Part shown: in pieces, positions 7,865 through 47,646 of the stretch
Position numbering within the stretch: position 1 is the first letter of the stretch
Layout of the letters: the number at the start of each line of letters is the position of its first letter
Virus record (IMG/VR): IMGVR_UViG_3300028048_000093
Strand: one strand, 5' to 3'
DNA from: a virus
Taxonomy: Duplodnaviria; Heunggongvirae; Uroviricota; Caudoviricetes; Crassvirales
Length of the DNA: 64,000 bases
Notes under the pieces: model-generated
What the model was told of the DNA's origin: nothing
Seen by the model: the letters and a program-made list of their open reading frames with translations, nothing else
Database searches by the model: none
Position numbers and translations under genes: made by a program

Positions 7865-8387
7865 ACACTACGAAGGTCTGTATAATAGCTGCATGGCGAT
7901 TAATCTTACCCAATGCCTCTGAAATAGACCTCATTGTTGTACCTGAGTAGTAGGAATCATCCAGTAGTATATAATGTGTAGCCTCAAGGTTGCTCTTGAA
8001 TATCTCAGGACTTTTGCCTTCCCTGATACCACCATTCACCACTATCACATCTTTGAAATTGTTAGCTAACTCCTTAGCAAAGTTTGACATAACATAATGC
8101 CCAAACCTGCCAGTTACTATAACTCCTAGGTCTGAGGAGTTCATTGATGTTTGTGAGCCGAATACCCCGTTGATGGCTATTGGTGAAATCATGTGATAGA
8201 AGTCATAGTTGCATACCCAGTCTATGAAAGTCTTTCCAATGTTTTGGTCAGACCTTATCATCAAATCCAAGGCATTGAAAAACTTCTCCCCACCTTCAGG
8301 GTGCTGCTTGAGGATGTCTATTATTTTCTCATTCAGTGTCATAGAACTTCTTGTACCTTTTGTATGTGTCTCTGATGACCTTCTCAC
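7806..8387 (-). CDS. type I phosphoribosyltransferase-fold protein
   Basis: PRPP-binding motif HYILLDDSYYSGTTM. Small size (about 180-190 aa). Confidence 0.55.
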   Translation of the reverse strand: MRRSSETHTKGTRSSMTLNEKIIDILKQHPEGGEKFFNALDLMIRSDQNIGKTFIDWVCNYDFYHMISPIAINGVFGSQTSMNSSDLGVIVTGRFGHYVMSNFAKELANNFKDVIVVNGGIREGKSPEIFKSNLEATHYILLDDSYYSGTTMRSISEALGKINRHAAIIQTFVVYDGSKDSQEFVKSMYRYYE

Positions 8388-8772
8388 TTATAGGACACTG
8401 CCTCTGCTTGTTCCTCTCCAGACATTCTTCCAATGGGGTCTTGAAGTCTCTGAACTCAAGTGTATATTGGATTGATGACCTTCTACCATTAAACTCCTTG
8501 ATGACCCCCTCATACCACTTGGCTTCATTGGGGTTGAGGTTCATGTTGTCCACAACAATGTCATAGCCATTTTCCATAGCCTCAGTGACAATAGCCATCC
8601 TTGCTCTTCTTACTATAGCTTCCCTTGAAGGAACCCAGTACTTTCCAAGCATATATCGGATGTCATCATTGTTGTATCTCACCCTGTGCTCAGGGTCTTC
8701 CTCTGCCCATGCCTTAGCCCATGTTGACTTACCTGAGGCTTGTATGCCTCTACAAAGTATAATCTTACTCAT
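8329..8772 (-). CDS. pnk: polynucleotide 5'-kinase (T4 Pnk kinase-domain-like, P-loop)
   Basis: Walker A GIQASGKST. Overall pattern resembles the T4 Pnk N-terminal kinase (KIILxxGxxGSGKSTWA...DxxR...DNxNL). No fused phosphatase domain. Confidence 0.65.
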   Translation of the reverse strand: MSKIILCRGIQASGKSTWAKAWAEEDPEHRVRYNNDDIRYMLGKYWVPSREAIVRRARMAIVTEAMENGYDIVVDNMNLNPNEAKWYEGVIKEFNGRRSSIQYTLEFRDFKTPLEECLERNKQRQCPISEKVIRDTYKRYKKFYDTE

Positions 8773-32407: not shown

Positions 32408-32602
32408 TTACTTATGCCTCCATGTGAGCTTTGGTAAGTCAGTCAGGCACTTTGTCTTGTAAGTTAGGACGATGAACACAACCCAGATAATCATTCCCAG
32501 TGCTACTAGGATGTCATTGGGGGCTGATACCATTTGTCCTGCGAAGGTCCACACCAGCATAAGCAGGATGAACCAGAGAAAAATACTTAACGCCTTTTTC
32601 AT
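32408..32602 (-). CDS. small membrane protein (2 TM)
   Basis: ORF track entry. Hydrophobic. Confidence 0.35.
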   Translation of the reverse strand: MKKALSIFLWFILLMLVWTFAGQMVSAPNDILVALGMIIWVVFIVLTYKTKCLTDLPKLTWRHK

Positions 32603-32603
32603 A

Positions 32604-33365
32604 TTATTGTAAGTCAGAGAGTTTTGCTATAAACTTATATGCCATACCTGTGAGGTAGTCAGGGCTATACATAGGCACCTTGGTCATCCATTCACAACCA
32701 TACCCTTCTACAGATACAGGAGTGAATTGTTTCAGGTACTCCTTGGTGCTTGCAGATGTCTCTTTGTTCCTAAGTAGTCCTGTATATCCTTCCCACTTAT
32801 CCCGTGAGATTATCCACACATTCACTATCTTAGTGACACCCTTGCCTTTTGCCCAGACTTTGCCCAAATACTTTGGACCATACTCAGTCATCCCCATCTT
32901 AATATCCTTCAAGACCTCCTTGTTAAAGTCTACATGGGCTTTCACTGGCTTGCGTCTTCTGTTGAAGGTAGTGTAAGGAAGCTTCTTGTCATTGTACTTG
33001 GAGTATCTGCAAAGGAAACCTGAGGAGGACACATAGAACTTGTTATGATGCCATGTAGTTGCATCCTTCTCCTTATCCACATGGTTGTAGAATAACTCAT
33101 GCGGAGGCTGTTCTCCCTTATAGGTTTTCTTCACTTCCTTAACAAAGTCTGAGAACACCTTATCTATAGGTCTGTCCACCTGTGAATACAACCATCTTTC
33201 AATGGGTGCTCTCACATAATTGTACCAATCACCTATGTAGTGATTCCCCATCAGTTTCCTCACAGGAAGATGTCTGCCCTTATAGGCTTTGTATGCCTTA
33301 TCATGTCTGGGCTGACTTTTCTTTCCATGACTTTTCTTTGACGTTTGTTTGAAATCTAAGGCCAT
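32604..33365 (-). CDS. hypothetical basic protein (253 aa)
   Basis: ORF track entry. Confidence 0.45.
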   Translation of the reverse strand: MALDFKQTSKKSHGKKSQPRHDKAYKAYKGRHLPVRKLMGNHYIGDWYNYVRAPIERWLYSQVDRPIDKVFSDFVKEVKKTYKGEQPPHELFYNHVDKEKDATTWHHNKFYVSSSGFLCRYSKYNDKKLPYTTFNRRRKPVKAHVDFNKEVLKDIKMGMTEYGPKYLGKVWAKGKGVTKIVNVWIISRDKWEGYTGLLRNKETSASTKEYLKQFTPVSVEGYGCEWMTKVPMYSPDYLTGMAYKFIAKLSDLQ

Positions 33366-34763: not shown

Positions 34764-34782
34764 CTTTTTTTTTTAGTCACTA

Positions 34783-34859
34783 TGGCGAATTAGACAGGAT
34801 TTGAACCTATTACACTTTGTATGACAAACAAATGCTCTATCCAAATGAGCTACAAATTC
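34783..34859 (-). tRNA. tRNA-Asp(GTC), CCA encoded
   Basis: Manual fold: acceptor GAATTTG/CTAATTC, D arm GCTC...GAGC, anticodon loop TTGTCAT, T arm with GGTTCAAATCC. Confidence 0.7.
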
Positions 34860-34866
34860 TTTACCA

Positions 34867-34879
34867 TATTGTAAGTGAC
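34867..34879 (-). repeat. recurring motif GTCACTTACAATA (minus orientation) 7 nt upstream of tRNA-Asp
   Basis: Variants of the same motif also occur at 35181-35191, 35273-35285, 35563-35575, 39745, 39896 and 39927, mostly 7-15 nt 5' of tRNA or tRNA-like starts. Confidence 0.4.
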
Positions 34880-35089
34880 TCTATCTTTTGTTGTTAATAA
34901 TCAATAAAAGCAGCTTCTTATTCTCGGCTAATGCTGCAAAGCCTCAACCCAACATAGGTATGTCAAGTGCTGGGATTTAGCTCTCTTGGTTCCTGAAAAG
35001 GACGGGTAAGCAGCCTTGATATGTAGCTGGCTGCTTGTACAGATTGCGTTGTGGAACTACTAGAGAGTGTAGGATAGTCACTAAGTTGT

Positions 35090-35135
35090 GTCAACATTAA
35101 AAGTGTTGTGCTCTAACCACTGAGCTAATCTGCCG
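35090..35135 (-). pseudogene. tRNA-Lys(TTT)-like 5' fragment (acceptor, D arm and anticodon arm only)
   Basis: Reads CGGCAGATTAGCTCAGTGGTTAGAGCACAACACTTTTAATGTTG. No T arm or 3' acceptor follows within 250 nt. Confidence 0.4.
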
Positions 35136-35139
35136 ATAA

Positions 35140-35167
35140 TGGAGGCGGATATAGGAGTCGAACCTAT
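35140..35167 (-). pseudogene. orphan tRNA 3' fragment (T arm, acceptor 3' strand and CCA)
   Basis: Reads ATAGGTTCGACTCCTATATCCGCCTCCA. No matching 5' half is present upstream. Confidence 0.35.
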
Positions 35168-35198
35168 GCTTGATGTGGTCTTGTAAGTGACTATGTAG

Positions 35199-35323
35199 TG
35201 GGGGAGCCTGGACTCGAACCAGGAATTTCAAAAACCTCAATTTTGCGTGTTTACCTGAATTTTAATGATAGTATTGTATGTGACTAATAGTCACACGAAA
35301 ATTACTAATTTCACTACTCCCCC
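35199..35323 (-). ncRNA. tRNA-like RNA gene (~125 nt) with ~75-nt insertion in place of the anticodon arm
   Basis: Perfect acceptor pairing GGGGGAG/CTCCCCC. T arm CCTGGTTCGAGTCCAGG. Internal 8-bp palindrome TGTGACTA-T-TAGTCACA and a copy of the upstream motif lie inside. Confidence 0.4.
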
Positions 35324-35327
35324 ATAA

Positions 35328-35460
35328 TGGGCGGGGAATGAGAGAATCGAACTCCCATTTCTGGATTGTGTCCCAGAAAAATTGTATAAGATGCTGTTGT
35401 ATGTATCAAATAGGACACGGAGATACACAATACAATCGGCAACCATTGCCAAATTCCCCA
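35328..35460 (-). ncRNA. tRNA-like RNA gene (~133 nt) with extended anticodon-region hairpins, CCA encoded
   Basis: Acceptor TGGGGAA/TTCCCCG. D arm TGGC-AATGGTT-GCCG. T arm GGGAGTTCGATTCTCTC. About 57 extra nt between the D and T arms form hairpins. Confidence 0.4.
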
Positions 35461-35477
35461 TTGAAAGACACTAATAA

Positions 35478-35550
35478 ACTTACATATTGGAATCGAACCA
35501 ATTATACTCTGATTACCAATCGGATGCTCTACCTAATGAGCTAATGTTAA
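35478..35550 (-). tRNA. tRNA-Thr(GGT)
   Basis: Manual fold: D arm GCTC-ATTAGGTA-GAGC, anticodon loop TTGGTAA, T arm TTGGTTCGATTCCAA. The acceptor has one mismatch. Confidence 0.5.
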
Positions 35551-35562
35551 TTTTTACTATAG

Positions 35563-35575
35563 TATTGTAAGTGTC
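35563..35575 (-). repeat. motif copy (GACACTTACAATA) 13 nt upstream of tRNA-Thr
   Basis: Same motif family as 34867-34879. Confidence 0.35.
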
Positions 35576-35633
35576 TTAATTGTGGATGAGTGAGGTATCA
35601 CCCTCACCCACCCTAGAATCTGTAAAAAAGGTC

Positions 35634-37517
35634 TTACAGAGTATTTGCTCTCACAAGCTCATACCTGTTTGACCTGTGGATTGACTGCAAGGGAGTATAG
35701 ACATCGAAGACATCCATATCCTTGAAGTTAGTCAGGAACTGCTCAATTTGTGCAGGATTTGAAGGAATGTACATCAGGTTGTCTATACCTGAGAACTTCT
35801 CTACAGCCCTCTCCATATACCTGTCATCATAGCCATTGGTTACATCCATAGCCACAATGAAAGGCTTGAAGCCTAGGTGTATCTCGCACTGTCTGAGTAA
35901 ATCAGCCACTGAGGACTCAGGGCTGGGCAGATTGTTCCACTCTCCATCTGAAATGATAGTCCATACAGGGAAATCCTTGAGGGCATCCTTCAGCTGAGGG
36001 AAGTCAGTCATAATGACTTTGAGGCTCTTAATGAGAGTAGAAATGTCAGTCCAACCACCACCAAACATACCTCTAAGATAAGAACTGATGTTCTTGTAGT
36101 TATCCATAAAGGATTTGGTGGGGTCAACAAAGGGTTTGTTCACAGACTTTACACCTGAGTTCCTTCTCATAATAGAGTTAGGAGTCTCTGCTGCTTCCCT
36201 ATCAATGTGGCTGAACCATCTACAGCTTCTTCCAAAGAGGCCAACTAGGTTCCTACCATCATCATCGGGGTTCTTGCACAGACATACAGATGCAATGAAG
36301 GATGCAAAGGAGAAGGGCATACCACTCATAGACCCTGAGTCATCAATAATGACGAGGGTATTGTAAGGCAGGTTTACCTTATTCTGAATGAAAGCTTCAA
36401 GTTTGGCACCATCCACTCTACCAGAGATAATCTGCTGATACAACTCCTTGAAGTTTGTTGCACCAACATTAACCTTAGCCTCCTTCTTGACCTTCTGCAA
36501 CTTCACCTTATCCTCCTCTGAAGCCTGACCTTGTCTGACTTTCTCCTCAAGCACTCTCTGCTCTGTCTGCTTCTGCTCTTTGTATGCCTCCCACTTGGCT
36601 ACCCAAGGCTGGAACTTGGCCCACTTAGCTACCTCCTGTGTAGCAGTTACAGACTTTCCATCCATACCTGCTGTCTCACAGTCAGTGTCTATGACCTTAG
36701 AATAAAGAATCCTGTTCTTTACCCTGAACCTAGCCTGAGAAGGCAGCTTGTCAAACCAATCCAAGAACTGACTCTCGTCAAATTCATTGATTTTGCCTGT
36801 GGAGAAGAGTACACTTTCAAGTGAGCCATTGAACTCCTTGCGCCACTCTCTGTAGCCCTTGAAATTCACATAGGTTCCCTTGACCTCATACTCCCAACCC
36901 ATAAGCTTAGATAGTTCAACAAGGAACTTAGCCTTATTCTCCATTACCTGTTTGGTCTGAGGGAGCATCTTCTTGTGGCCTGCTCTCTTGGAGAATCTGG
37001 GTATAGTGAGGAATTTAGCAATCAGCAGCTTGTTGAAGGGGTTCTTACCATTGATGACTGCATATACATACTTTAAGAGTTCCTCTCTGTACCAATCATC
37101 AGCAAAGATGTCATAGACCTTGAGAACCTTAGAACCCTTGGTCTGTACTCTGCTTCTGAATAAGGTATCAAAGCACTGATACTCATTGAACAAACCAGCA
37201 TTGAGGAACTTCACAAACTGTTGCTTGTGATTGGTTCTCAGCCAGTTAAATATGGTATAGAAGCCTTCACGGTTGGCATTACCACCACTGTCCTTCTTAA
37301 CACCACCAAAGATGTTGTGCTGCCTAGCTGTGATGTCACCTACTGAGAACAGAATGGAGAAGAACAGCTCACGATGTTCCTTATTCTCCTTGACCTCATT
37401 CCAGCAGGTATTGAGCATGGACTCAGAGATAGTGCTGCCTACAGCCTGTGTGAGGTTGAGGCAGTTCCTTAATCCGTAAAAGGGATTGTTACTAGTTTGG
37501 TTTAACTTCACTTCCAT
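35634..37517 (-). CDS. von Willebrand factor A (vWA) domain protein, 627 aa
   Basis: MIDAS motif LVIIDDSGSMSG, then GGWTD, then ISDGE. The C-terminal segment KPFIVAMDVTNGYD resembles the Ro60 vWA segment KLIVCGMTSNGF. The N-terminal ~380 aa are uncharacterised. Confidence 0.6.
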   Translation of the reverse strand: MEVKLNQTSNNPFYGLRNCLNLTQAVGSTISESMLNTCWNEVKENKEHRELFFSILFSVGDITARQHNIFGGVKKDSGGNANREGFYTIFNWLRTNHKQQFVKFLNAGLFNEYQCFDTLFRSRVQTKGSKVLKVYDIFADDWYREELLKYVYAVINGKNPFNKLLIAKFLTIPRFSKRAGHKKMLPQTKQVMENKAKFLVELSKLMGWEYEVKGTYVNFKGYREWRKEFNGSLESVLFSTGKINEFDESQFLDWFDKLPSQARFRVKNRILYSKVIDTDCETAGMDGKSVTATQEVAKWAKFQPWVAKWEAYKEQKQTEQRVLEEKVRQGQASEEDKVKLQKVKKEAKVNVGATNFKELYQQIISGRVDGAKLEAFIQNKVNLPYNTLVIIDDSGSMSGMPFSFASFIASVCLCKNPDDDGRNLVGLFGRSCRWFSHIDREAAETPNSIMRRNSGVKSVNKPFVDPTKSFMDNYKNISSYLRGMFGGGWTDISTLIKSLKVIMTDFPQLKDALKDFPVWTIISDGEWNNLPSPESSVADLLRQCEIHLGFKPFIVAMDVTNGYDDRYMERAVEKFSGIDNLMYIPSNPAQIEQFLTNFKDMDVFDVYTPLQSIHRSNRYELVRANTL

Positions 37518-37566
37518 AATGATGCAACGTTAGATAAGTAAAAACTTGTAAGTAACACTAAATGTT

Positions 37567-38010
37567 CTAGAAATCTTCCTCAGCATCCAAGCCAGCAAGC
37601 TGTGCCTCCAGTTCCTTGATTCTGTCCTCAGGAGTCTTGGTAGATTCCTTCAGATTCTTCAACTGTTCTGTGAGTTCAGCCTTCTTTCTCTTGGTCTCCT
37701 CAGCTTCCAGCTTATATCTCTTCCAACCTATGATGAGGTTGACAAGCTCTTTCTGCTTCTTGAGAGACTCCAGCTTTTCCTGAGTGTAGTCTGAAGCTAC
37801 CCACTCATCCTGAGACTCCAGCTTCTCAATCTGCTTTGCAAGACCAAGACGGATGTCATTCAGAGTACCAATGGTGGTAGTGTGCAACAGGTCAACAATA
37901 TTCAAGGGCTGACCCATCTTAGTGGAGATAGTCTCATTTGCAATGAGCATGGCAAATGCCAAAGAGGACATCTTCACATAATGTTCTTTAGTAAAACGTA
38001 CTTTAGCCAT
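37567..38010 (-). CDS. hypothetical coiled-coil protein (147 aa)
   Basis: ORF track entry. Heptad-like K/E-rich C-terminus. Confidence 0.45.
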   Translation of the reverse strand: MAKVRFTKEHYVKMSSLAFAMLIANETISTKMGQPLNIVDLLHTTTIGTLNDIRLGLAKQIEKLESQDEWVASDYTQEKLESLKKQKELVNLIIGWKRYKLEAEETKRKKAELTEQLKNLKESTKTPEDRIKELEAQLAGLDAEEDF

Positions 38011-38757: not shown

Positions 38758-38932
38758 TCAGTTGTAACATAAATTTTCTGCAATGAGGTGCATCCCATGT
38801 CACCTGAGAAAAGGATGCCAACCTTACTTGACTTTGTTTGGCAGTCTTTCTGGGATAAAGGATTGAGGTATTCTACTGTAGTCCTCACACACTTTCATGC
38901 TGAACAGATACCCAGTTACTTCTACCTCATAG

Positions 38933-39435
38933 TGGAGCTAGAGGGAGTCGAACCCTCGTCCAAACAGTTCAGCCATAGGAAACTAAATACACGCTTTTGC
39001 CATTACTGGCACTTGGGGCTGACTGGAAGTCAACCAATCCACCACTCCATTTTGAGAAAACGGAGAAAACACTCTCTCACATATTGCATCTGATGTTATC
39101 TCTGCCCCAGTTATTGAGAGTTGTGACAGTCTATCTTCAGGTATAATAGTGGCTTACCTCCTCCGTGCATCAGAGCAAATTAAGCACTGGGACTTCGGAC
39201 TACCAATCTTAGTTTCCCCTCAGATTTAGCTACACACCCTTTCAGATTATCTGTCTCTTGGTGAGTTTCTGTTTCAGGCACTCACCTTGCCTAGCACTTA
39301 CGCAGCAATCCTGAGGACTGTTTTGCTGGCAGGAGTCATTACAACTACCTTAGCATTTATTGGTTTACCATTTCAAGGCATGGATGCCTGCGTGATTTCC
39401 TACCACATTCCTGCTGTCAAAACCGTGATAACCCC
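38933..39435 (-). ncRNA. ssrA: tmRNA (ssrA)-like gene, ~500 nt
   Basis: 3' end GGACGAGGGTTCGACTCCCTCTAGCTCCA closely matches the tmRNA T arm/acceptor (E. coli GGACGCGGGTTCAACTCCCGCCAGCTCCA). 5' end GGGGTTATCACGGTTTTGACAG resembles GGGGCTGATTCTGGATTCGAC and gives a G3-U70 acceptor. A candidate tag ORF GCC AGC AAA ACA GTC CTC AGG ATT GCT GCG TAA (ASKTVLRIAA*) starts about nt 106. Confidence 0.45.
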
Positions 39436-39548
39436 ATTGAGTGACCCTTAGCCACTCATATGCTGACAGGTCTAGAAGATGTAAATGATGGGCCTTGGTA
39501 GGCAGGGAAAGTCCAATCATAAACTCTTCTTGACCCGCTAGTTTTCAA

Positions 39549-39586
39549 AAAACCCTACTCTGTTTCACAACAGTGTAGGGCCAAAC
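39549..39586 (-). terminator. rho-independent terminator
   Basis: Minus-strand CCCTACACTGTTGTGAAACAGAGTAGGG followed by TTTTTTG. Confidence 0.55.
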
Positions 39587-39641
39587 AATAACTAAAAACC
39601 TAAAACTATAAATATTACTACTAACCTAAAACAAATCGGAG

Positions 39642-39714
39642 TACTCCCTGTAGGACTCGAACCTACAACCCACAGATTAGAAATCTGTTGCTCTATCCAT
39701 TGAGCTAAGGGAGC
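39642..39714 (-). tRNA. tRNA-Arg(TCT)
   Basis: Acceptor GCTCCCT/AGGGAGT, anticodon loop TTTCTAA, T arm GTAGGTTCGAGTCCTAC. Confidence 0.7.
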
Positions 39715-39782
39715 ATATACCTCTATATTCACATACTGAGGTATTGTTCTGTTTACACATAAACAGCGTAAGTAGTACATTG

Positions 39783-39856
39783 TACTGCCTAGGAGACTCG
39801 AACTCCTAATAGCCACATCGAAAGTGTGGTGACTTAACCAATTTGTCCAAGGCAGC
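39783..39856 (-). tRNA. tRNA-Glu(TTC)
   Basis: Acceptor GCTGCCT/AGGCAGT, anticodon stem CCACA/TGTGG, loop CTTTCGA, T arm AGGAGTTCGAGTCTCCT. Confidence 0.7.
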
Positions 39857-39970
39857 AAGTGAGTGTGTATAGTGTTTCACACATGGTAATTCATACCATT
39901 ATTGTTCGTGGTACTAGCACGCTACATATTGTTTGCACAAACTCCCACACTCATCAATCACATGGTGATG

Positions 39971-40042
39971 TACCCCCAATAGGAATCGAACCTATATCTA
40001 CGGTTTAGGAAACCGTTGCTCTGTCCGTTGAGCTATGGGGGC
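39971..40042 (-). tRNA. tRNA-Arg(CCT)
   Basis: Acceptor GCCCCCA/TGGGGGT, anticodon stem ACGGT/ACCGT, loop TTCCTAA, T arm ATAGGTTCGATTCCTAT. Confidence 0.7.
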
Positions 40043-44734: not shown

Positions 44735-44806
44735 TGGGTTATAGCGCAATGGTAACGCACAGGATTTTGGTCCCTGATATTCTAGGTTCGACTCCTAGTG
44801 ACCCAA
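44735..44806 (+). tRNA. tRNA-Gln(TTG)
   Basis: Acceptor TGGGTTA/TGACCCA, anticodon loop TTTTGGT, T arm CTAGGTTCGACTCCTAG. Confidence 0.6.
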
Positions 44807-44812
44807 CAAAAT

Positions 44813-44887
44813 GCAGCCATCCCTGCTAACAGGTTAGGCAACTACACTCTCAATGTAGAAATCAGGGTTCGAGTCCCTGTGGCTGTA
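44813..44887 (+). tRNA. tRNA-Glu(CTC) (D arm irregular)
   Basis: Acceptor GCAGCCA/TGGCTGT, anticodon stem CTACA/TGTAG with loop CTCTCAA, T arm CAGGGTTCGAGTCCCTG. The D arm does not fold canonically by eye. Confidence 0.5.
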
Positions 44888-44922
44888 CTAGGAGTTCTTT
44901 GACATACTGACACACTATTATA

Positions 44923-44993
44923 GGATATGTGGTGTAATAGGTAACATACCACCCTGTCACGGTGAAGTTAGGGGTTCGAGTCCCCCATATCCT
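44923..44993 (+). tRNA. tRNA-Asp(GTC)
   Basis: Acceptor GGATATG/CATATCC, anticodon loop CTGTCAC, T arm GGGGTTCGAGTCCCC. Confidence 0.6.
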
Positions 44994-45048
44994 GCAAGAT
45001 ACCACACCTATCTAGTCCACATAGGCACAGCGGTGTAATGTGGCAGTT

Positions 45049-45139
45049 GGAGAGTTAAGCCTAATTGGTAAGGCAGTAGTCCTGAAAACTACTAGTAGTC
45101 GTGAATAGCGGTGTGTGGGTTCAAGTCCCACACTCTCCT
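45049..45139 (+). tRNA. tRNA-Ser(TGA), class II with long variable arm
   Basis: Acceptor GGAGAGT/ACTCTCC, anticodon stem GTAGT/ACTAC, loop CCTGAAA, T arm GTGGGTTCAAGTCCCAC. Confidence 0.6.
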
Positions 45140-45150
45140 CTCTTTATTAT

Positions 45151-45223
45151 ATAGGTGTAGCTCAGTAGGTAGAGTTCTTGCTTTGGGAGCAAGATGTCGC
45201 AGGTTCGAGTCCTGTCACCTATA
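45151..45223 (+). tRNA. tRNA-Pro(TGG)
   Basis: Acceptor ATAGGTG/CACCTAT, anticodon stem CTTGC/GCAAG, loop TTTGGGA, T arm GCAGGTTCGAGTCCTGT. Confidence 0.7.
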
Positions 45224-45228
45224 CTATT

Positions 45229-45314
45229 GGAGGTGAGAAGCCTAGAGGTAAGGTCTTGGTTTGCTAAACCAAAGGTTCAATAAAATGGATGAGTTTCGAT
45301 TACTCCTGCCTCCG
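45229..45314 (+). tRNA. tRNA-Ser(GCT), class II
   Basis: Acceptor GGAGGTG/TGCCTCC, anticodon stem TTGGT/ACCAA, loop TTGCTAA, T loop TTCGATT. Confidence 0.55.
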
Positions 45315-45322
45315 CTTAAATT

Positions 45323-45396
45323 GGGGTTGTAGCTCAGATGGCTAGAGCATCTGCTTTGCAAGCAGAGGGTCGAGGGTTCGAGTCCCTTCTTCTCCA
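45323..45396 (+). tRNA. tRNA-Ala(TGC)
   Basis: 5' half almost identical to canonical tRNA-Ala (GGGGTTGTAGCTCAG...CTGCTTTGCAAGCAG). G3-U70 pair present. Two mismatches in the acceptor. Confidence 0.6.
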
Positions 45397-45456
45397 CACA
45401 CGGATTCTTGTTCATAATGTTAATGGAGCCTAGCTAGAGGGTAAAATCTAGCAATC

Positions 45457-45528
45457 GGGGATATAGCTCAATGGCAGAGCAACTGGCTGTTAACCAGTAG
45501 GTTGTGGGTTCGACTCCCTCTATGCCCG
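45457..45528 (+). tRNA. tRNA-Asn(GTT)
   Basis: Acceptor GGGGATA/TATGCCC, anticodon stem ACTGG/CCAGT, loop CTGTTAA, T loop TTCGACT. Confidence 0.6.
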
Positions 45529-45688
45529 CAAGGTTGTGATGCAAGCACTCCGAGGTCAGCATGACTTGCAAATGACTGACTGCCTCTACTCTGAAAGACT
45601 CCTGAGTGCAATAAGGGAGTGTAATCAATGAGAAGGGATGACGAAAGCAGGACACAGGGATTTCACTGCCCACAGAGCCTGCTTACCT

Positions 45689-45760
45689 TGGTCTTTAGTG
45701 GAATGGTAACACGTCAGATTCTGGCTCTGAAGATTGGGAGTTCGACCCTCTCAAGACCAA
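45689..45760 (+). tRNA. tRNA-Gln(CTG)
   Basis: Acceptor TGGTCTT/AAGACCA, anticodon stem TCAGA/TCTGA, loop TTCTGGC, T arm GGGAGTTCGACCCTCTC. Confidence 0.6.
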
Positions 45761-45765
45761 CATAC

Positions 45766-45842
45766 AGGGGCATAGTTTTAATGGTAAAACACTGGTCTCC
45801 AAAACCAGATTTGGGGGTTCGATTCCTTCTGTCTCTGCCCTA
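45766..45842 (+). tRNA. tRNA-Trp(CCA)-like with aberrant T-arm/acceptor 3' region
   Basis: 5' two-thirds align with E. coli tRNA-Trp (AGGGGCATAGTT...CTGGTCTCCAAAACCAG). The 3' region carries about 6 extra nt (CCTTCTGTCTCTGCCCT). Possibly a pseudogene or a non-canonical T arm. Confidence 0.45.
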
Positions 45843-45861
45843 ACTTTTAACAAGTTTACAT

Positions 45862-46038
45862 TATGATTACAGGTTTGATTATTGCAGGTGTTTGGCTGGC
45901 AGGTAGTGTTGCAGCTTGGCATCTAGGTGTTAAGGATTGGGATAATCCTAAGTGGGAGAATGTTGCATTGAGCCTTGCATGGCCTTGCATCCTACCTTTG
46001 TGGTGCATCCATAGGATTCACAATGGTCATTGGTAATG
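45862..46038 (+). CDS. small membrane protein (58 aa) embedded in tRNA array
   Basis: Manual translation gives MITGLIIAGVWLAGSVAAWHLGVKDWDNPKWENVALSLAWPCILPLWCIHRIHNGHW. Below the ORF-track cutoff. Confidence 0.3.
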
Positions 46039-46045
46039 ACCATAT

Positions 46046-46119
46046 TGGGATATAGCTTAGAAGGTTAAAGCGTTTGACTGATAATCAAGAGACCACAGGT
46101 TCAAGTCCTGTTATCCCAA
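46046..46119 (+). tRNA. tRNA-Ile(GAT)
   Basis: Acceptor TGGGATA/TATCCCA, anticodon stem TTTGA/TCAAG, loop CTGATAA, T arm ACAGGTTCAAGTCCTGT. Confidence 0.6.
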
Positions 46120-46121
46120 CT

Positions 46122-46193
46122 GTACTAGTAGCTTAATGGTAAAGCCCCTGATTGTGAGTCAGGTGTATGTGAGTTCGAGCCTCACCTAGCACC
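46122..46193 (+). tRNA. tRNA-His(GTG)
   Basis: Anticodon stem CCTGA/TCAGG, loop TTGTGAG, T arm GTGAGTTCGAGCCTCAC. Acceptor has one mismatch. Confidence 0.6.
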
Positions 46194-46270
46194 CTTCTCG
46201 GTTGTCGTGAGACAAGTCCTTTCACACGCGGTTTTTCGTTTACTTTTTTCATGTTTTCGTTTTGTTTTTC

Positions 46271-46300
46271 CTCCTGCCTGTGAAGGTCGGAGGTTTTTGT
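46271..46300 (+). terminator. rho-independent terminator inside tRNA array
   Basis: CCTCCTGCC ... GGTCGGAGG followed by TTTTTGTT. Confidence 0.45.
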
Positions 46301-46370
46301 TCTCTTAGCTCAGCGGTAGAGCAATACACTTTTAATGTATGGGTCCAGGGTTCGAGTCTCTGAGGGAACA
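46299..46370 (+). tRNA. tRNA-Lys(TTT)
   Basis: Acceptor GTTCTCT/AGGGAAC, D arm GCTC-AGCGGTA-GAGC, anticodon loop CTTTTAA, T arm CAGGGTTCGAGTCTCTG. Confidence 0.7.
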
Positions 46371-46398
46371 CACTTTTAGTTATTAACCCTTAAAAGTG
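46369..46398 (+). other. perfect hairpin immediately after tRNA-Lys
   Basis: ACACTTTTAG ... CTTAAAAGTGT forms an 11-bp stem. Confidence 0.4.
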
Positions 46399-46547
46399 TA
46401 TTGAATATGAAAAAGATTAAGAACATTTGCAAGAGGGTACTGAAGGCTTATTGTAAGGGAGCTGTTATGATGTACCCAACTGGTACTATTCCAGTAAGGA
46501 TTGACCTATAGGAGGTCAACCCTTTCACTTGAGGGTAATAATTACAT

Positions 46548-46629
46548 TGGAGTATAGATAGCTGGAAAAATCCGCAGACTGTAAATCTGTCGTCTTTTGA
46601 CTGTGGGGGTTCGAGTCCCTCTGCTCCAA
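46548..46629 (+). tRNA. tRNA-Tyr(GTA), long variable arm
   Basis: Acceptor TGGAGTA/TGCTCCA, anticodon loop CTGTAAA, T arm GGGGGTTCGAGTCCCTC. Confidence 0.55.
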
Positions 46630-46638
46630 CTAATATAA

Positions 46639-46713
46639 TGGACACTTGGCAGACTTGGTGTATGCGCTGGACTGAAAATCCAGAGAACGAGGTTCAACTC
46701 CTTGAGTGCCCAC
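46639..46713 (+). tRNA. tRNA-Phe(GAA)
   Basis: Anticodon stem CTGGA/TCCAG, loop CTGAAAA, T arm CGAGGTTCAACTCCTTG. Acceptor has one mismatch. Confidence 0.55.
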
Positions 46714-46867
46714 ACTATGTATTGCAGAATCAAGAATCAAGAATGTCCTCATGCAGGAGAATTGAAGATGAAGGGCTGTGAGGAAATAGGTGAGAAACCA
46801 GGTGTATATGCTTACACTATATGCTATAAAGAAGGTGGCAGGTTGGCTTGTACCCTAGGTATTTAGT

Positions 46868-46948
46868 GGGAAGATGGTGGAATGGTAGACACGCTAGTCT
46901 TAGGAACTAGTGCAGAAATGTGTAAGGGTTCGAGTCCCTTTCTTCCTA
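46868..46948 (+). tRNA. tRNA-Leu(TAG), class II
   Basis: Acceptor GGGAAGA/TCTTCCT, anticodon stem CTAGT/ACTAG, loop CTTAGGA, 13-nt variable arm, T arm AAGGGTTCGAGTCCCTT. Confidence 0.6.
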
Positions 46949-46989
46949 CTTTAGTTAAACAATGTTAAGGTATTGCACTTTTTGACCAA

Positions 46990-47030
46990 AACATTTGGTA
47001 GTTTCAAATAAAATGCTTACCTTTGCAGCA
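46990..47030 (+). promoter_or_regulatory. Bacteroidota-type promoter
   Basis: TTTG at 46994-46997 and TAccTTTG at 47018-47025, spacing 20 nt. Upstream of ORF 47045 and further tRNAs. Confidence 0.6.
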
Positions 47031-47044
47031 TCAAATTAATAATT

Positions 47045-47251
47045 ATGGCAGAGACAAGGAAATTAACAGAGGATGAACTCAGGTGGAGAGCAGAAGAAGA
47101 TGCAAGAACACTTGAGAGATACCAAGAGATTATCAATGATAAGGCAAGGCTTGACAGAGCCTTGAAGGTAGCTGAGAAGCAAGTTGATAATCTACAGGAG
47201 AGGGCTAAGGCACTGAGCAAGTCCATCACTGGTATCAAGAAGAAGAAATAA
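47045..47251 (+). CDS. hypothetical coiled-coil protein (68 aa)
   Basis: ORF track entry. Promoter immediately upstream. Confidence 0.45.
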   Translation: MAETRKLTEDELRWRAEEDARTLERYQEIINDKARLDRALKVAEKQVDNLQERAKALSKSITGIKKKK

Positions 47252-47252
47252 G

Positions 47253-47324
47253 CCTCTTTAGCTCAGTTGATAGAGCAACTGATTTGTACTCAGTGGGTCG
47301 AGGGTTTGAATCCTTCAAGAGGCT
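47253..47324 (+). tRNA. tRNA-Thr(TGT)
   Basis: Perfect acceptor GCCTCTT/AAGAGGC. D arm GCTC-AGTTGATA-GAGC. Anticodon loop TTTGTAC. T arm GAGGGTTTGAATCCTTC. Confidence 0.7.
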
Positions 47325-47480
47325 CTCTAACGAAGAGGATAATACTAGAATAAGACTCAACGTAACTTACAGGCTGTTGCCCTTAACACCAGTTTCTATA
47401 GAGGGGTACAACATAAGATTAGCCCTGTCAGGTGTCGTATTACCTGCCCTAGTTGTCGGGGATGAGCAATGACAACAAAT

Positions 47481-47552
47481 GTAGGTATAGCACAATGGTT
47501 AGTGTGCCAGACCACCACTCTGGATATGAGAGTTCGATTCTCTTTACCTACT
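47481..47552 (+). tRNA. tRNA with non-canonical anticodon loop CCACCAC (C33; anticodon ACC?)
   Basis: Perfect acceptor GTAGGTA/TACCTAC and anticodon stem CCAGA/TCTGG. T arm GAGAGTTCGATTCTCTT. The loop lacks the universal U33. Confidence 0.5.
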
Positions 47553-47559
47553 CAACATC

Positions 47560-47632
47560 GCGGTATAGACTGGAGGAGGTTCCAGCTCAGTCTCATAAGC
47601 TGAATAACGTGGGTTCGAGTCCCACTACCGCA
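47560..47632 (+). tRNA. tRNA-Met/Ile2-type (CAT)
   Basis: Anticodon stem TCAGT/GCTGA, loop CTCATAA, T arm GTGGGTTCGAGTCCCAC. Confidence 0.6.
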
Positions 47633-47646
47633 ACTAAATTTTAGGA

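What the first reader, a model, noticed from the sequence alone, without database searches (positions are those of the whole stretch)
34860..37517. vWA-domain protein (Ro60/TROVE-like?) next to two tRNA-like RNAs with expanded anticodon regions
The gene 35634-37517 encodes a 627-aa protein whose C-terminal third is a complete vWA/MIDAS domain (DDSGSMSG, GGWTD, ISDGE). Its closing strand KPFIVAMDVTNGYD resembles Ro60 KLIVCGMTSNGF.

Directly downstream on the same strand lie two genes (35328-35460 and 35199-35323) that have perfect tRNA acceptor stems, D arms and GGTTCGANTCC T arms. One has an encoded CCA. In both, 57-75 extra nucleotides of hairpins replace the anticodon arm.

Ro60/Rsr proteins (vWA plus TROVE) partner with tRNA-mimicking Y RNAs (YrlA), and Rsr/Y RNA pairs have been reported in phages. 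A Ro-like RNP in this phage would be new. Even if the protein is not TROVE, a vWA protein co-located with tRNA-like ncRNAs is unexplained.
Basis: partly seen in the sequence, partly recalled or inferred. Interest (0 to 1): 0.7.

Follow-up and report, generated by a model that had tools for sequence, protein, structure and literature searches.

The report
Ro60-like protein with handle-tagged tRNAs
A crAss-like gut phage encodes a very divergent relative of the RNA-binding protein Ro60 next to a row of tRNA-derived RNAs (interrupted, circularly permuted or normal) that all carry one conserved RNA "handle", which also brackets the protein's own start codon and so probably marks a new phage Ro/Y-RNA-type particle.

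Summary

RNA A (35332-35459) is a type-II tRNA-like RNA. It keeps a 6-bp anticodon stem but has 44 nt in place of the loop, and no anticodon is conserved among orthologues. RNA B (35199-35323) is a tRNA-Leu(GAG)-type gene with an intact anticodon arm and a 52-nt insertion in the D loop.

All these, plus two normal tRNAs, carry one conserved module: a covarying helix next to ACUUACAAUA. The same module encloses the start codon of the Ro60-like gene. It clusters at this gene in about 140 related loci and is absent from two related phages that lack the gene.

My best reading is that the module is the protein's binding site, giving a Ro/Y-RNA-like particle with autoregulation. This is inferred, not shown. 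The main rival is a processing or splicing signal. I rate it a new variant of a known kind, with high interest.

The parts
35634..37517 (-). Gene for the 627-aa Ro60-like protein: helical N-terminal region plus a C-terminal vWA/MIDAS domain.
37546..37559 (-). Handle 5' strand and motif (AGUGUUAC-UUACAA) in the 5' leader of the Ro60-like gene.
   Evidence: The motif is present upstream of the gene in most related loci.
37488..37493 (-). Handle 3' strand (AGUAAC, codons 9-10, Ser-Asn). It pairs with 37552-37557, so the start codon lies inside the enclosed loop.
   Evidence: Of 33 loci with the upstream motif, 30 have AGT AAC here, always with these codons. Only 1 of 8 loci without the motif has it. 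The helix appears in the minimum-free-energy fold.
35584..35614 (-). Conserved hairpin just after the stop codon. In relatives it is terminator-like or resembles a T arm.
   Evidence: Sequence and comparison with L001-L008.
35465..35577 (-). Unit 1: a normal tRNA-Thr(GGU) (35477-35551) flanked by the handle (AAGACAC-UUACAAUACUAU ... UUA-GUGUCUU).
   Evidence: ARAGORN and Rfam. Flanking complement.
35332..35459 (-). RNA A: a type-II tRNA-like RNA with G73 and a long variable arm. Its anticodon loop is replaced by a 44-nt handle (35387-35430; motif ACAUACAA at 35397-35404).
   Evidence: Fold z -3.2. 21 orthologues with all arms covarying. No consistent anticodon among orthologues.
35199..35323 (-). 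RNA B: a tRNA with anticodon GAG (Leu by anticodon). The 52-nt handle sits in the D loop (35256-35307; motif at 35274-35281). The anticodon loop is at 35234-35240.
   Evidence: Fold z -4.1. Local Rfam tRNA hit on the anticodon and T arms. Family of D-loop-interrupted tRNAs. ARAGORN calls tRNA-Leu(gag) after in-silico deletion.
35074..35194 (-). Circularly permuted tRNA-Lys(UUU) gene closed by the handle. Order: T arm, acceptor 3' strand and UCCA (35140-35167); 5-nt linker; acceptor 5' strand, D arm and anticodon arm (35092-35134). Handle strands at 35187-35194 and 35074-35081.
   Evidence: Local YrlA-type match with the order T arm, closed acceptor, D arm. 46 such units in relatives with 37 acceptor-pair types. 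Re-permuted sequence is called as a 73-nt tRNA-Lys(ttt).
34775..34882 (-). Unit 5: a normal tRNA-Asp(GUC) (34783-34859) flanked by the handle (AGAGUCAC-UUACAA ... UA-GUGACU).
37567..38010 (-). 147-aa helical or coiled-coil ORF immediately upstream. It is co-conserved with the Ro60-like gene and may be a partner.
   Evidence: tblastn finds it in 76 of 78 loci. No informative family hit.

Best explanation
The 627-aa protein is a highly divergent member of the Ro60/Rsr superfamily of ring-shaped RNA-binding proteins. The RNAs encoded just downstream are tRNAs and tRNA derivatives that each carry the same stem-bulge-stem 'handle'. The handle is a 6-10-bp helix (5'-AAG-W-Y-ACUUA / UAAGU-R-W-CUU-3') whose two middle pairs covary. 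It is joined to a conserved single strand, CAAUAYYAU...

The handle projects from different places in different RNAs:
- the acceptor end (normal tRNA-Thr and tRNA-Asp);
- the variable-loop position (permuted tRNA-Lys);
- the D loop (RNA B);
- the anticodon loop (RNA A).

I propose that the handle is the binding site of the Ro60-like protein. The locus would then make a set of Y-RNA-like particles: a conserved protein-binding stem plus a tRNA-type module, as in bacterial Rsr/YrlA. A sixth copy of the handle encloses the start codon of the protein's own mRNA, which would give translational autoregulation.

Shown: the fold and profile relationship of the protein, the RNA structures and their covariation, and the shared motif and its restriction to this gene's neighbourhood. 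Inferred: that this protein binds the handle, and what the particles do. Candidate roles are protection, controlled maturation or sequestration of a special tRNA set, or recruitment of host exonucleases as in RYPER.
For: Protein:
- hhalign gives 95% probability, E 2.8e-8.
- 62 of 72 relatives hit phrog_850, the phage Ro60 family.
- 5 of 11 weak PDB profile hits are Ro60/TROVE proteins.

Motif:
- ACTTACAA occurs 840 times on the gene strand and 29 times on the other strand in 1.18 Mb of related loci.
- The consensus is TAAG-W-Y-ACTTACAATA.
- 456 of 616 sites have a complementary partner with at most one non-Watson-Crick pair in 7, against 169 of 1848 random control sites.
- At the variable helix positions there are 20 G.U-type and 1 A.C-type pairs, against 16 and 19 in controls. 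This places the pairing on the sense-strand RNA.

Link to the gene:
- Motif copies peak just upstream of the gene start and within about 700 nt after its end.
- The window's other 18-tRNA array (44.7-47.6 kb, + strand) has no copy.
- Related Crassvirales without the gene (cr128_1; crAss001, first 50 kb including its 23-tRNA array) have the motif only at chance level and none at tRNAs.
- The helix around the start codon co-occurs with fixed AGT AAC codons in 30 of 33 loci with the motif, against 1 of 8 without it.

Precedent:
- Y RNAs are encoded next to Ro60 and contain tRNA-like modules, and M. smegmatis YrlA is cut by RNase P and receives CCA (PMC4201824).
- Phage phiLo Ro60 binds stem-bulge-stem Yrl RNAs (PMC12135203).
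- The Ro-like gene of Streptomyces phage Alone3 also sits inside a tRNA array.
- Permuted units in relatives score up to 39 bits on the YrlA model.
- RNA A has no conserved anticodon, as expected for a non-decoding scaffold.
Against: - No binding or expression data exist; the protein-handle link rests on co-location and the start-codon helix.
- The handle lacks the CGAA/GNCGAA motif of known bacterial and phage Y RNAs. Its conserved strand lies on the 5' side of the stem, not the 3' side.
- Pfam TROVE is not hit (0 of 72), and residues 1-287 are not matched directly to TROVE.
- RNA B-type and permuted units look like genuine decoding tRNAs. Base 37 follows the anticodon's third base, and many have N73-CCA encoded. 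This fits a maturation signal at least as well as a permanent protein handle.
- Distant relatives of the protein (about 20-25% identity) lack the motif. One sits between AAA ATPase genes.
- The loci are phylogenetically related, so counts overstate independence.
Confidence: 0.45

Rival explanations
1. The handle is an RNA processing or splicing signal, playing the role of the archaeal bulge-helix-bulge motif. An endonuclease (host or phage, possibly recruited by or identical to the Ro60-like protein) cuts at the helix-loop junction. A ligase such as host RtcB then joins the ends. This would remove the insertions from RNA A and RNA B, circularise the permuted precursors before RNase P and 3' trimming, and release the normal tRNAs. 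The copy on the Ro60-like mRNA would be a feedback cleavage site. This reading is compatible with the protein being the recognition factor.
For: - The geometry matches bulge-helix-bulge logic. The conserved bases always face the tRNA body, and the far end of the helix is either a loop or the transcript ends.
- Interrupted, permuted and possibly split tRNA pieces occur together, as in Archaea and Cyanidioschyzon (PMC3978253, PMC4090602).
- RNA B-type genes become canonical tRNAs once the insertion is deleted, with anticodon loops that follow the base-36/base-37 rule.
- Permuted units encode N73-CCA and re-permute to 72-75-nt tRNAs.
- No insertion-free copies exist.
Against: - There is no bulge-helix-bulge geometry (sequence inspection).
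- No splicing endonuclease or RNA ligase was found among 30 neighbouring ORFs scanned; only a kinase-like ORF is present.
- The distance from the motif to the exon borders varies from 11 to 23 nt in the RNA B family.
- No junction choice gives RNA A a consistent 7-nt anticodon loop with U33.
- The handle matches no Rfam ribozyme or intron family.
- Permuted tRNAs could work as two pieces held together by the helix, as two-piece tmRNA does, without any ligation.
Confidence: 0.3
2. TAAG-W-Y-ACTTACAATA is a phage-specific promoter, and the downstream inverted copy is a stop or roadblock element. Each tRNA or tRNA fragment would then be its own transcription unit, so RNA A and RNA B would be split genes transcribed in two pieces.
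For: - The motif is about 16-20 nt long, strongly conserved and strand-specific. It lies upstream of RNA units and of protein genes (37546-37553; 32607-32614).
- It contains a -10-like TACAAT.
- Middle promoters of crAss-like phages are often found upstream of tRNA genes (bioRxiv 10.1101/2020.03.07.982082).
- An unrelated GC-rich phage contig has TAAGYYACTTACAAGGAG in front of several genes.
Against: - The variable bases upstream of ACTTACAA covary with a partner 30-200 nt downstream. G.U pairs are tolerated but A.C pairs are not (20:1 against 16:19 in controls). So this segment is transcribed and paired as RNA.
- There is no -35-like conservation.
- The partner of the copy at the Ro60-like gene lies inside the coding region.
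- There is no room for a separate promoter between the upstream ORF or hairpin and the helix.
Confidence: 0.12
3. The handle is a selfish small insertion element (like a miniature transposon) that spread in this region, and the vWA protein is an unrelated phage protein (for example a partner of an AAA ATPase). The co-location would be coincidental.
For: - Inverted-repeat ends of about 10 bp flank the units.
- Some distant homologues of the protein sit between AAA ATPase genes and have no motif.
Against: - The cargo differs in every copy while the ends match within a copy.
- The insertions in RNA A and RNA B are fixed at the same position in all orthologues, with compensatory changes.
- G.U pairs are tolerated.
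- The motif is confined to the neighbourhood of this gene.
Confidence: 0.05

Closest known systems
Ro60/Rsr with Y RNAs (bacterial Rsr-YrlA; Thermus phage phiLo Ro60 with Yrl1/Yrl2)
   Same: - The protein combines a helical region with a vWA/MIDAS domain, and Ro60 proteins are its best structural matches.
- The RNA genes lie next to the protein gene.
- The RNAs combine a conserved stem-bulge-stem with a tRNA-like module.
- The permuted units have the YrlA order: T arm, closed acceptor stem, D arm.
- As in M. smegmatis YrlA, they have a 7-bp acceptor stem that is a likely RNase P substrate, here with CCA already encoded.
   Different: - Sequence similarity is marginal: Pfam TROVE is not hit and the N-terminal 287 residues are unmatched.
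- The conserved RNA motif is ACUUACAAUA on the 5' strand, not CGAA/GNCGAA.
- There are five or more handle-bearing RNAs per locus.
- Many have full anticodon arms and look like decoding tRNAs.
- The handle can sit in the D loop or the anticodon loop of an RNA with open acceptor ends.
- A copy encloses the protein's own start codon.
Circularly permuted, intron-containing and split tRNA genes of Archaea and the red alga Cyanidioschyzon merolae
   Same: - The 3' half is encoded upstream of the 5' half.
- Interruptions occur at non-canonical positions (D loop, anticodon stem, variable region).
- One shared RNA motif marks all the interruption points.
   Different: - There is no bulge-helix-bulge motif.
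- No splicing endonuclease was found.
- The host domain is Bacteria (a phage of Bacteroidota).
- CCA is encoded in many units.
- Whether ligation occurs at all is unknown.
Two-piece (circularly permuted) tmRNA of alpha-proteobacteria and cyanobacteria
   Same: A permuted gene in bacteria whose acceptor-closing loop is cut out. This leaves a functional two-piece, tRNA-like molecule held together by base pairing, with no ligation.
   Different: That case concerns tmRNA, not tRNAs. No conserved protein-binding handle is involved.
Phage T7 and rRNA-operon RNase III processing stems
   Same: Stem, asymmetric internal loop, stem elements that flank each functional RNA in a polycistronic precursor.
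   Different: The helix here is short (6-10 bp) and has a strongly conserved sequence, which is unlike RNase III sites. It also occurs inside tRNA bodies.

Membership tests
Ro60/Rsr (TROVE + vWA) proteins | C-terminal vWA domain with a complete MIDAS site (DxSxS...T...D). | tested here: met
   D392, S394, S396, T490 and D524 are invariant in 72 relatives. vWA fold confirmed. The vWA start aligns with that of Ro60 proteins.
Ro60/Rsr (TROVE + vWA) proteins | N-terminal TROVE module: HEAT-like helices forming a closed ring with the vWA domain. | tested here: inconclusive
Ro60/Rsr (TROVE + vWA) proteins | Curated sequence-family membership (Pfam TROVE PF05731 above its cut-off). | tested here: not met
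   The window protein has no Pfam hit. TROVE is hit by 0 of 72 relatives, and vWA_Ro60 by 2 of 72 at E 0.015. The window protein's own hit to phrog_850 is only E 0.009.
Ro60/Rsr (TROVE + vWA) proteins | Binds Y RNA or misfolded RNA. | not testable with these tools
   Needs EMSA, RIP or a structure.
YrlA / bacterial Y RNA (Rfam RF02553) | Score at or above the Rfam gathering threshold (69 bits). | tested here: not met
   The window's permuted unit scores 19.8 bits as a local match. The best related units score 39 and 29.7 bits. RNA A and RNA B give no hit.
YrlA / bacterial Y RNA (Rfam RF02553) | tRNA-like module in the order T arm, loop-closed acceptor stem, D arm, with the RNA ends forming the protein-binding stem. 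| tested here: met
   Met by the permuted unit 35074-35194 and by 46 related units. Not met by RNA A or RNA B, which have open acceptor ends and an internal hairpin.
YrlA / bacterial Y RNA (Rfam RF02553) | Ro-binding stem with the GNCGAA(N)G / CGAA motif. | tested here: not met
   The conserved sequence is TAAG-W-Y-ACTTACAATA. The CGAA requirement is taken from PMC4201824 and PMC12135203.
YrlA / bacterial Y RNA (Rfam RF02553) | Encoded next to a Ro60 orthologue. | tested here: met
   All the handle RNAs lie within about 900 nt downstream of the gene. Motif density peaks there in related loci.
Canonical tRNA (Rfam RF00005 / ARAGORN) | Uninterrupted cloverleaf scoring above threshold. | tested here: not met
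   RNA A gives no tRNA hit. RNA B gives an 18.2-bit local hit against a cut-off of 29. ARAGORN finds neither without its intron option. After in-silico deletion RNA B is called tRNA-Leu(gag).
Circularly permuted tRNA genes (Cyanidioschyzon / Thermofilum type) | 3' half upstream of 5' half, with complementary acceptor strands; re-permutation gives a canonical tRNA. | tested here: met
   Window unit: 6 of 7 acceptor pairs, and a 73-nt tRNA-Lys(ttt) after re-permutation. 46 units with 37 acceptor-pair types.
Circularly permuted tRNA genes (Cyanidioschyzon / Thermofilum type) | Bulge-helix-bulge motif formed by leader and trailer; circular intermediate. | tested here: not met
   Leader and trailer form a continuous 6-10-bp helix without 3-nt bulges around a 4-bp helix (sequence). 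Circular intermediates are not testable here.
Group I intron in a tRNA gene | Ribozyme core of at least about 200 nt, recognisable by Rfam. | tested here: not met
   The insertions are 44 and 52 nt. There is no intron family hit even at E up to 10.

The most novel reading that the evidence does not exclude
Bacteriophages of Bacteroidota carry a system of disrupted tRNA genes: circularly permuted, interrupted in the D loop or anticodon loop, and possibly split into separate anticodon stem-loops. A single conserved RNA handle marks every interruption. The handle is recognised by a Ro60-derived protein that directs excision and ligation, or holds two-piece tRNAs together. This would be the first permuted tRNA genes and the first protein-dependent tRNA 'introns' outside Archaea and eukaryotes, and a new enzymatic or chaperone role for a Ro60 relative.
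Probability: 0.22. Interest if true: 0.95.

Novelty: new variant of a known kind. Interest (0 to 1): 0.8.

Why it matters
Ro60/Y-RNA particles are still poorly understood. It is not known why their RNAs mimic tRNA or what they act on.

This locus offers a natural, repeated and covarying candidate binding site. It is attached to real tRNA bodies at four different structural positions and also to the protein's own mRNA. That makes RNA recognition, autoregulation and the function of the tRNA module directly testable with a handful of constructs.

Independently of the protein, the locus contains circularly permuted tRNA genes with encoded CCA, and tRNAs with large D-loop insertions, in abundant gut and rumen phages. 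I found no report of permuted tRNA genes in phages or bacteria and none of Ro60 in Crassvirales.

Standard annotation misses all of these genes: ARAGORN and Rfam skip them. The tRNA repertoires of such phages are therefore under-counted.

Tried and rejected
- **Anticodon-loop introns in both RNAs.** ARAGORN with its intron option calls them His(gtg) and Leu(taa) and gives different, inconsistent anticodons for orthologues. I rejected this. RNA B's insertion is in the D loop, and RNA A has no consistent anticodon.
- **Known RNA families.** Rfam was searched at E up to 10. Only sub-threshold YrlA and tRNA hits appeared, with no ribozyme or intron family.
- **Bulge-helix-bulge motif.** I tried to fit the flanks to this geometry by hand and they did not fit.
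- **Alternative pairing in RNA A.** RNAalifold pairs the 5' strand of the anticodon stem with the motif's UACAA. I rejected this as the main structure. The downstream partner is compensated in 21 of 21 sequences, while the motif partner is broken in 4.
- **Direct homology searches.** A PDB sequence search with the close alignment gave only a weak alpha2-delta vWA hit. Foldseek on the first, low-confidence model gave only vWA domains. tblastn against 50,697 GenBank phages gave nothing.
- **RNA repair or splicing enzymes.** Pfam and PHROG scans of 30 neighbouring ORFs found none except a kinase-like ORF.
- **Loose helix census.** This test was uninformative because random sites also find partners. 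I replaced it with stricter tests.
- **Motif scan of IMG/VR.** Most hits were single chance matches. Dense clusters came only from contigs with the Ro60-like gene.
- **Metagenome scan with the diverse alignment.** It failed because no block was conserved enough, so I repeated it with the close alignment.


Full report
**1. What is at the coordinates**

The window comes from a crAss-like phage. Its portal protein is 66-71% identical to those of crAss001, Kehishuvirus and cr128_1 (Steigviridae).

On the minus strand, ORF 35634-37517 encodes 627 aa. Downstream lie, in order:
- a hairpin (35584-35614);
- tRNA-Thr(GGU) (35477-35551);
- RNA A (35332-35459);
- RNA B (35199-35323);
- a 190-nt spacer;
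- tRNA-Asp(GUC) (34783-34859).

ARAGORN and Rfam in standard mode see only the two normal tRNAs.

**2. The protein**

Neither Pfam nor a close-homologue profile identifies the protein. The family is narrow. A full HMMER scan of 1.84 billion representatives finds only 183 clusters, nearly all 590-690 aa. None of 50,697 GenBank phages encodes it.

In a 72-sequence alignment reaching about 20% identity, the MIDAS residues D392, S394, S396, T490 and D524 are invariant. So are R65 and G79 in an N-terminal loop.

- all other top hits: isolated vWA domains with 150-190 aligned residues.

An earlier, poorer model gave the same ranking.

hhalign of the family against an alignment of phage TROVE proteins gives 95% probability and E 2.8e-8. 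The match covers residues 288-590, that is, the vWA domain plus about 85 residues of the preceding helices.

PHROG family 850 ('RNA-binding protein') is the phage Ro60 family. Streptomyces phage Alone3 Ro-like protein hits it at 9e-58 and the crystallised phiLo Ro60 at 5e-38, both over their full length. Of 72 relatives of the window protein, 62 hit it, the best at 2.6e-20. Three relatives align over profile positions 75-474 of 476.

Against this, Pfam TROVE is hit by none, and the first 287 residues of the window protein are not matched directly. I therefore file the protein as a distant Ro60-superfamily relative, not as a curated TROVE member.

**3. RNA A**

Twenty-one distinct orthologues were collected from about 140 related loci.

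All cloverleaf elements covary: the acceptor stem, D stem, long variable arm and T stem. Fourteen of 33 RNAalifold pairs show double changes. The 6-bp anticodon-type stem is intact in 21 of 21 sequences, in seven sequence variants.

Between its strands lies a 40-60-nt module with three parts:
- 2-5 nt on the 5' side;
- a 5-7-bp covarying hairpin;
- the strand (A/U)UACAA followed by about 10 nt (consensus UAUCAUCUUU).

No choice of junction gives a conserved 7-nt loop with U33. ARAGORN's intron mode assigns a different 'anticodon' to each orthologue. RNA A is therefore a tRNA-shaped scaffold (type II, mostly G73) that probably does not decode.

**4. RNA B**

The insertion is in the D loop, between GUGAAAU and GGUAAACAC. 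The anticodon arm (CAAAA-UUGAGGU-UUUUG), the 5-nt variable loop, the T arm and A73 are all normal.

Deleting the insertion makes ARAGORN call standard 71-76-nt tRNAs. These are Leu(gag) in the window and Leu(tag), Tyr(gta), Pro(tgg), Gln(ttg) and Pro(cgg) in five orthologues.

Across the wider family of D-loop-interrupted genes, base 37 is G when the anticodon ends in G and A otherwise. Real decoding tRNAs follow the same rule.

No insertion-free copy of either RNA body exists in the loci.

**5. The permuted gene**

The order on the RNA is:
- handle strand and motif;
- 13 nt;
- T arm;
- acceptor 3' strand;
- U-CCA;
- 5-nt linker;
- acceptor 5' strand;
- D arm;
- anticodon arm (CUUUUAA);
- 7 nt;
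- UUAGU and the second handle strand.

Rfam's YrlA model matches its core locally (19.8 bits). Related units reach 39 bits. All are below the 69-bit threshold.

I found 46 distinct such units with 37 different acceptor-pair combinations, and many have N73-CCA encoded ahead of the linker. Re-permuting them in silico gives 72-75-nt tRNAs. These include Lys(ttt) in the window and, elsewhere, Thr(tgt), Phe(gaa), Ile, Asn, Cys and Tyr.

In a second class, the break lies inside the 5' strand of the anticodon stem.

**6. The shared handle**

All five RNAs, and the 5' end of the Ro60-like gene, carry TAAG-W-Y-ACTTACAATA.

- In 1.18 Mb of related loci the core octamer occurs 840 times on the gene strand and 29 times on the other strand.
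- The bases just 5' of and overlapping ACUUA pair with a partner (U/A)(U/A)AGU-R-W-C.
- That partner lies either 30-200 nt downstream, flanking a tRNA, a permuted tRNA or a small unit, or just upstream, forming the hairpin inside RNA A or RNA B.
- With symmetric scoring, 456 of 616 sites have a partner with at most one non-Watson-Crick pair in seven. Only 169 of 1848 random sites do.
- At the four variable positions there are 20 G.U-type and 1 A.C-type pairs, against 16 and 19 in controls (a smaller set gave 24:0).

The pairing therefore acts on the sense-strand RNA, which must include the helix strand upstream of the motif.

The conserved bases always face the tRNA body, and the far end of the helix is either a loop or the RNA ends. 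The module is a stem, an asymmetric internal loop and a second stem. This is the same general architecture as the Ro-binding part of Y RNAs (PMC12135203), but with a different sequence.

**7. Link between the handle and the gene**

- Handle copies peak just before the gene start and in the first 700 nt after its stop.
- The window's large tRNA array on the other strand (44735-47634) and the three tRNAs and the tmRNA upstream (38930-40042) have none.
- cr128_1 and crAss001 lack the gene. They have the octamer only at chance level, on both strands, inside coding regions and not at tRNAs.
- In an IMG/VR scan, dense clusters came only from contigs that carry the gene.
- The copy at the gene start pairs GUUAC (37552-37556) with GUAAC in codons 9-10, enclosing the AUG.
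- Of 33 loci with the upstream motif, 30 have Ser-Asn encoded as AGT AAC, never with other codons. Only 1 of 8 loci without the motif has it.

An RNA element that traps a gene's own start codon is the classic signature of autoregulation by that gene's RNA-binding or RNA-cleaving product.

**8. Interpretation**

The best-supported reading is a phage Ro/Y-RNA-like system in which the handle is the protein's binding site (confidence 0.45). The protein-RNA contact and the biological role are inferred, not shown.

The main rival is that the handle is a processing or splicing signal (0.30). It explains why decoding-type tRNAs carry the handle and why CCA is encoded. It lacks a nuclease, a ligase and a consistent cut-site geometry, and it cannot restore an anticodon loop to RNA A. 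The two readings are compatible if the Ro60-like protein is the recognition subunit.

A promoter reading (0.12) is weakened by the RNA-level covariation. A selfish-element reading (0.05) is weakened by the fixed, compensated insertions.

**9. Comparison with what is known**

Ro60/Y-RNA pairs are known in bacteria and phages, and Y RNAs there mimic tRNA (PMC4201824, PMC12135203). The Ro-like gene of Streptomyces phage Alone3 also sits among tRNA genes.

What is new here:
- the lineage (Crassvirales);
- the extreme divergence of the protein;
- a different conserved RNA motif;
- several handle-bearing RNAs per locus, including apparently functional tRNAs;
- circularly permuted tRNA genes;
- the autoregulatory copy.

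I found no paper on Ro60 in crAss-like phages or on permuted tRNA genes in phages.

**Limits**

There are no expression or binding data. The loci are related to each other, so counts are not independent. Distant homologues of the protein lack the motif.

Noticed in passing
window 38930-39435 (-): Phage-encoded tmRNA: Rfam scores 62 bits (gathering score 47) with a 158-nt insertion. ARAGORN instead calls a permuted tmRNA at about 38932-39233 with tag peptide ASNGKSVYLVSYG*. tmRNA genes also lie upstream of the Ro60-like gene in L002 and L004 (73 and 69.5 bits).
   Followed up: partly
window 44735-47634 (+) and 39641-40042 (-): An array of 18 ordinary tRNA genes, plus three more tRNAs, carry no handle motif. 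Lys(UUU), Thr, Leu and Asp are thus encoded twice, once plain and once with the handle.
   Followed up: partly
window 34979-35073 and 34906-34937 (-): The spacer between the permuted tRNA and tRNA-Asp folds into a long-range stem (CUCUCU...AGAGAG, GUUCC...GGAAC) around a GCAGCC hairpin. It is followed by a GC hairpin plus UUUU that looks like a terminator. It contains GCACUUGAC, reminiscent of the Ro-binding strand of animal Y RNAs. It is not conserved in L001 or L002.
   Followed up: partly
window 32607-32614, 32457-32464, 2537-2544 (-): Three further ACTTACAA copies have no complementary partner. One lies 5 nt before the ATG of a 64-aa ORF.
   Followed up: partly
L003, L005, L006, L008 (e.g. 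L006 about 8180-8340): A conserved structured RNA of about 150 nt, closed by AAUCCAAACU...AGUUUGGAUU with an internal GUACAGAG, follows RNA A in several relatives. It is absent from the window and has no Rfam hit.
   Followed up: no
L003 about 8080-8150; L008 7884; L027 5845; L040 7039; L007 10067; L033 6083: Handle-flanked 'mini-units' of 40-58 nt contain only an anticodon stem-loop of tRNA-Lys(UUU) (CUUUUAA) or tRNA-Thr(UGU) (CUUGUAA). They may be pieces of split tRNAs or decoys for anticodon nucleases. The UGU loop is fully complementary to the motif UUACAAG.
   Followed up: no
L003, L007, L008, directly after the gene's stop codon: In these relatives the hairpin after the gene is a 10-bp stem capped by a T-loop sequence (GGAGG-UUCGAUU-CCUCC). 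This is a tRNA minihelix mimic.
   Followed up: no
RNA B orthologues (window, L002, L068, L115, L104, L070): Nearly the same tRNA body (A73, same D and T arms) carries different anticodons in different phages: GAG, UAG, GUA, UGG, UUG and CGG. This suggests anticodon switching.
   Followed up: partly
L167 (IMGVR_UViG_3300027573_000398) 2678, 4454, 7353, 8935: An unrelated GC-rich phage contig has TAAGYYACTTACAA followed by GGAG and a start codon in front of several genes. There the same sequence looks like a promoter or leader element.
   Followed up: no
L151 2601-8500; L149 4147-5451: A distant homologue (about 20-25% identity) of the protein sits between two AAA ATPase genes and has no tRNAs. 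Another is followed by ordinary tRNAs. Neither locus has the handle motif.
   Followed up: partly
L144 (Streptomyces phage Alone3, OR725492.1 9733-14855): The annotated Ro-like RNA-binding protein gene is embedded in a tRNA array, with four tRNAs before it and three after.
   Followed up: no
window 8329-8772 (-): A 147-aa ORF with a polynucleotide-kinase-type P-loop domain (AAA_33, E 1e-15). It corresponds to the kinase/phosphatase annotated in crAss001-type phages. No RNA ligase was seen among the ORFs scanned.
   Followed up: no
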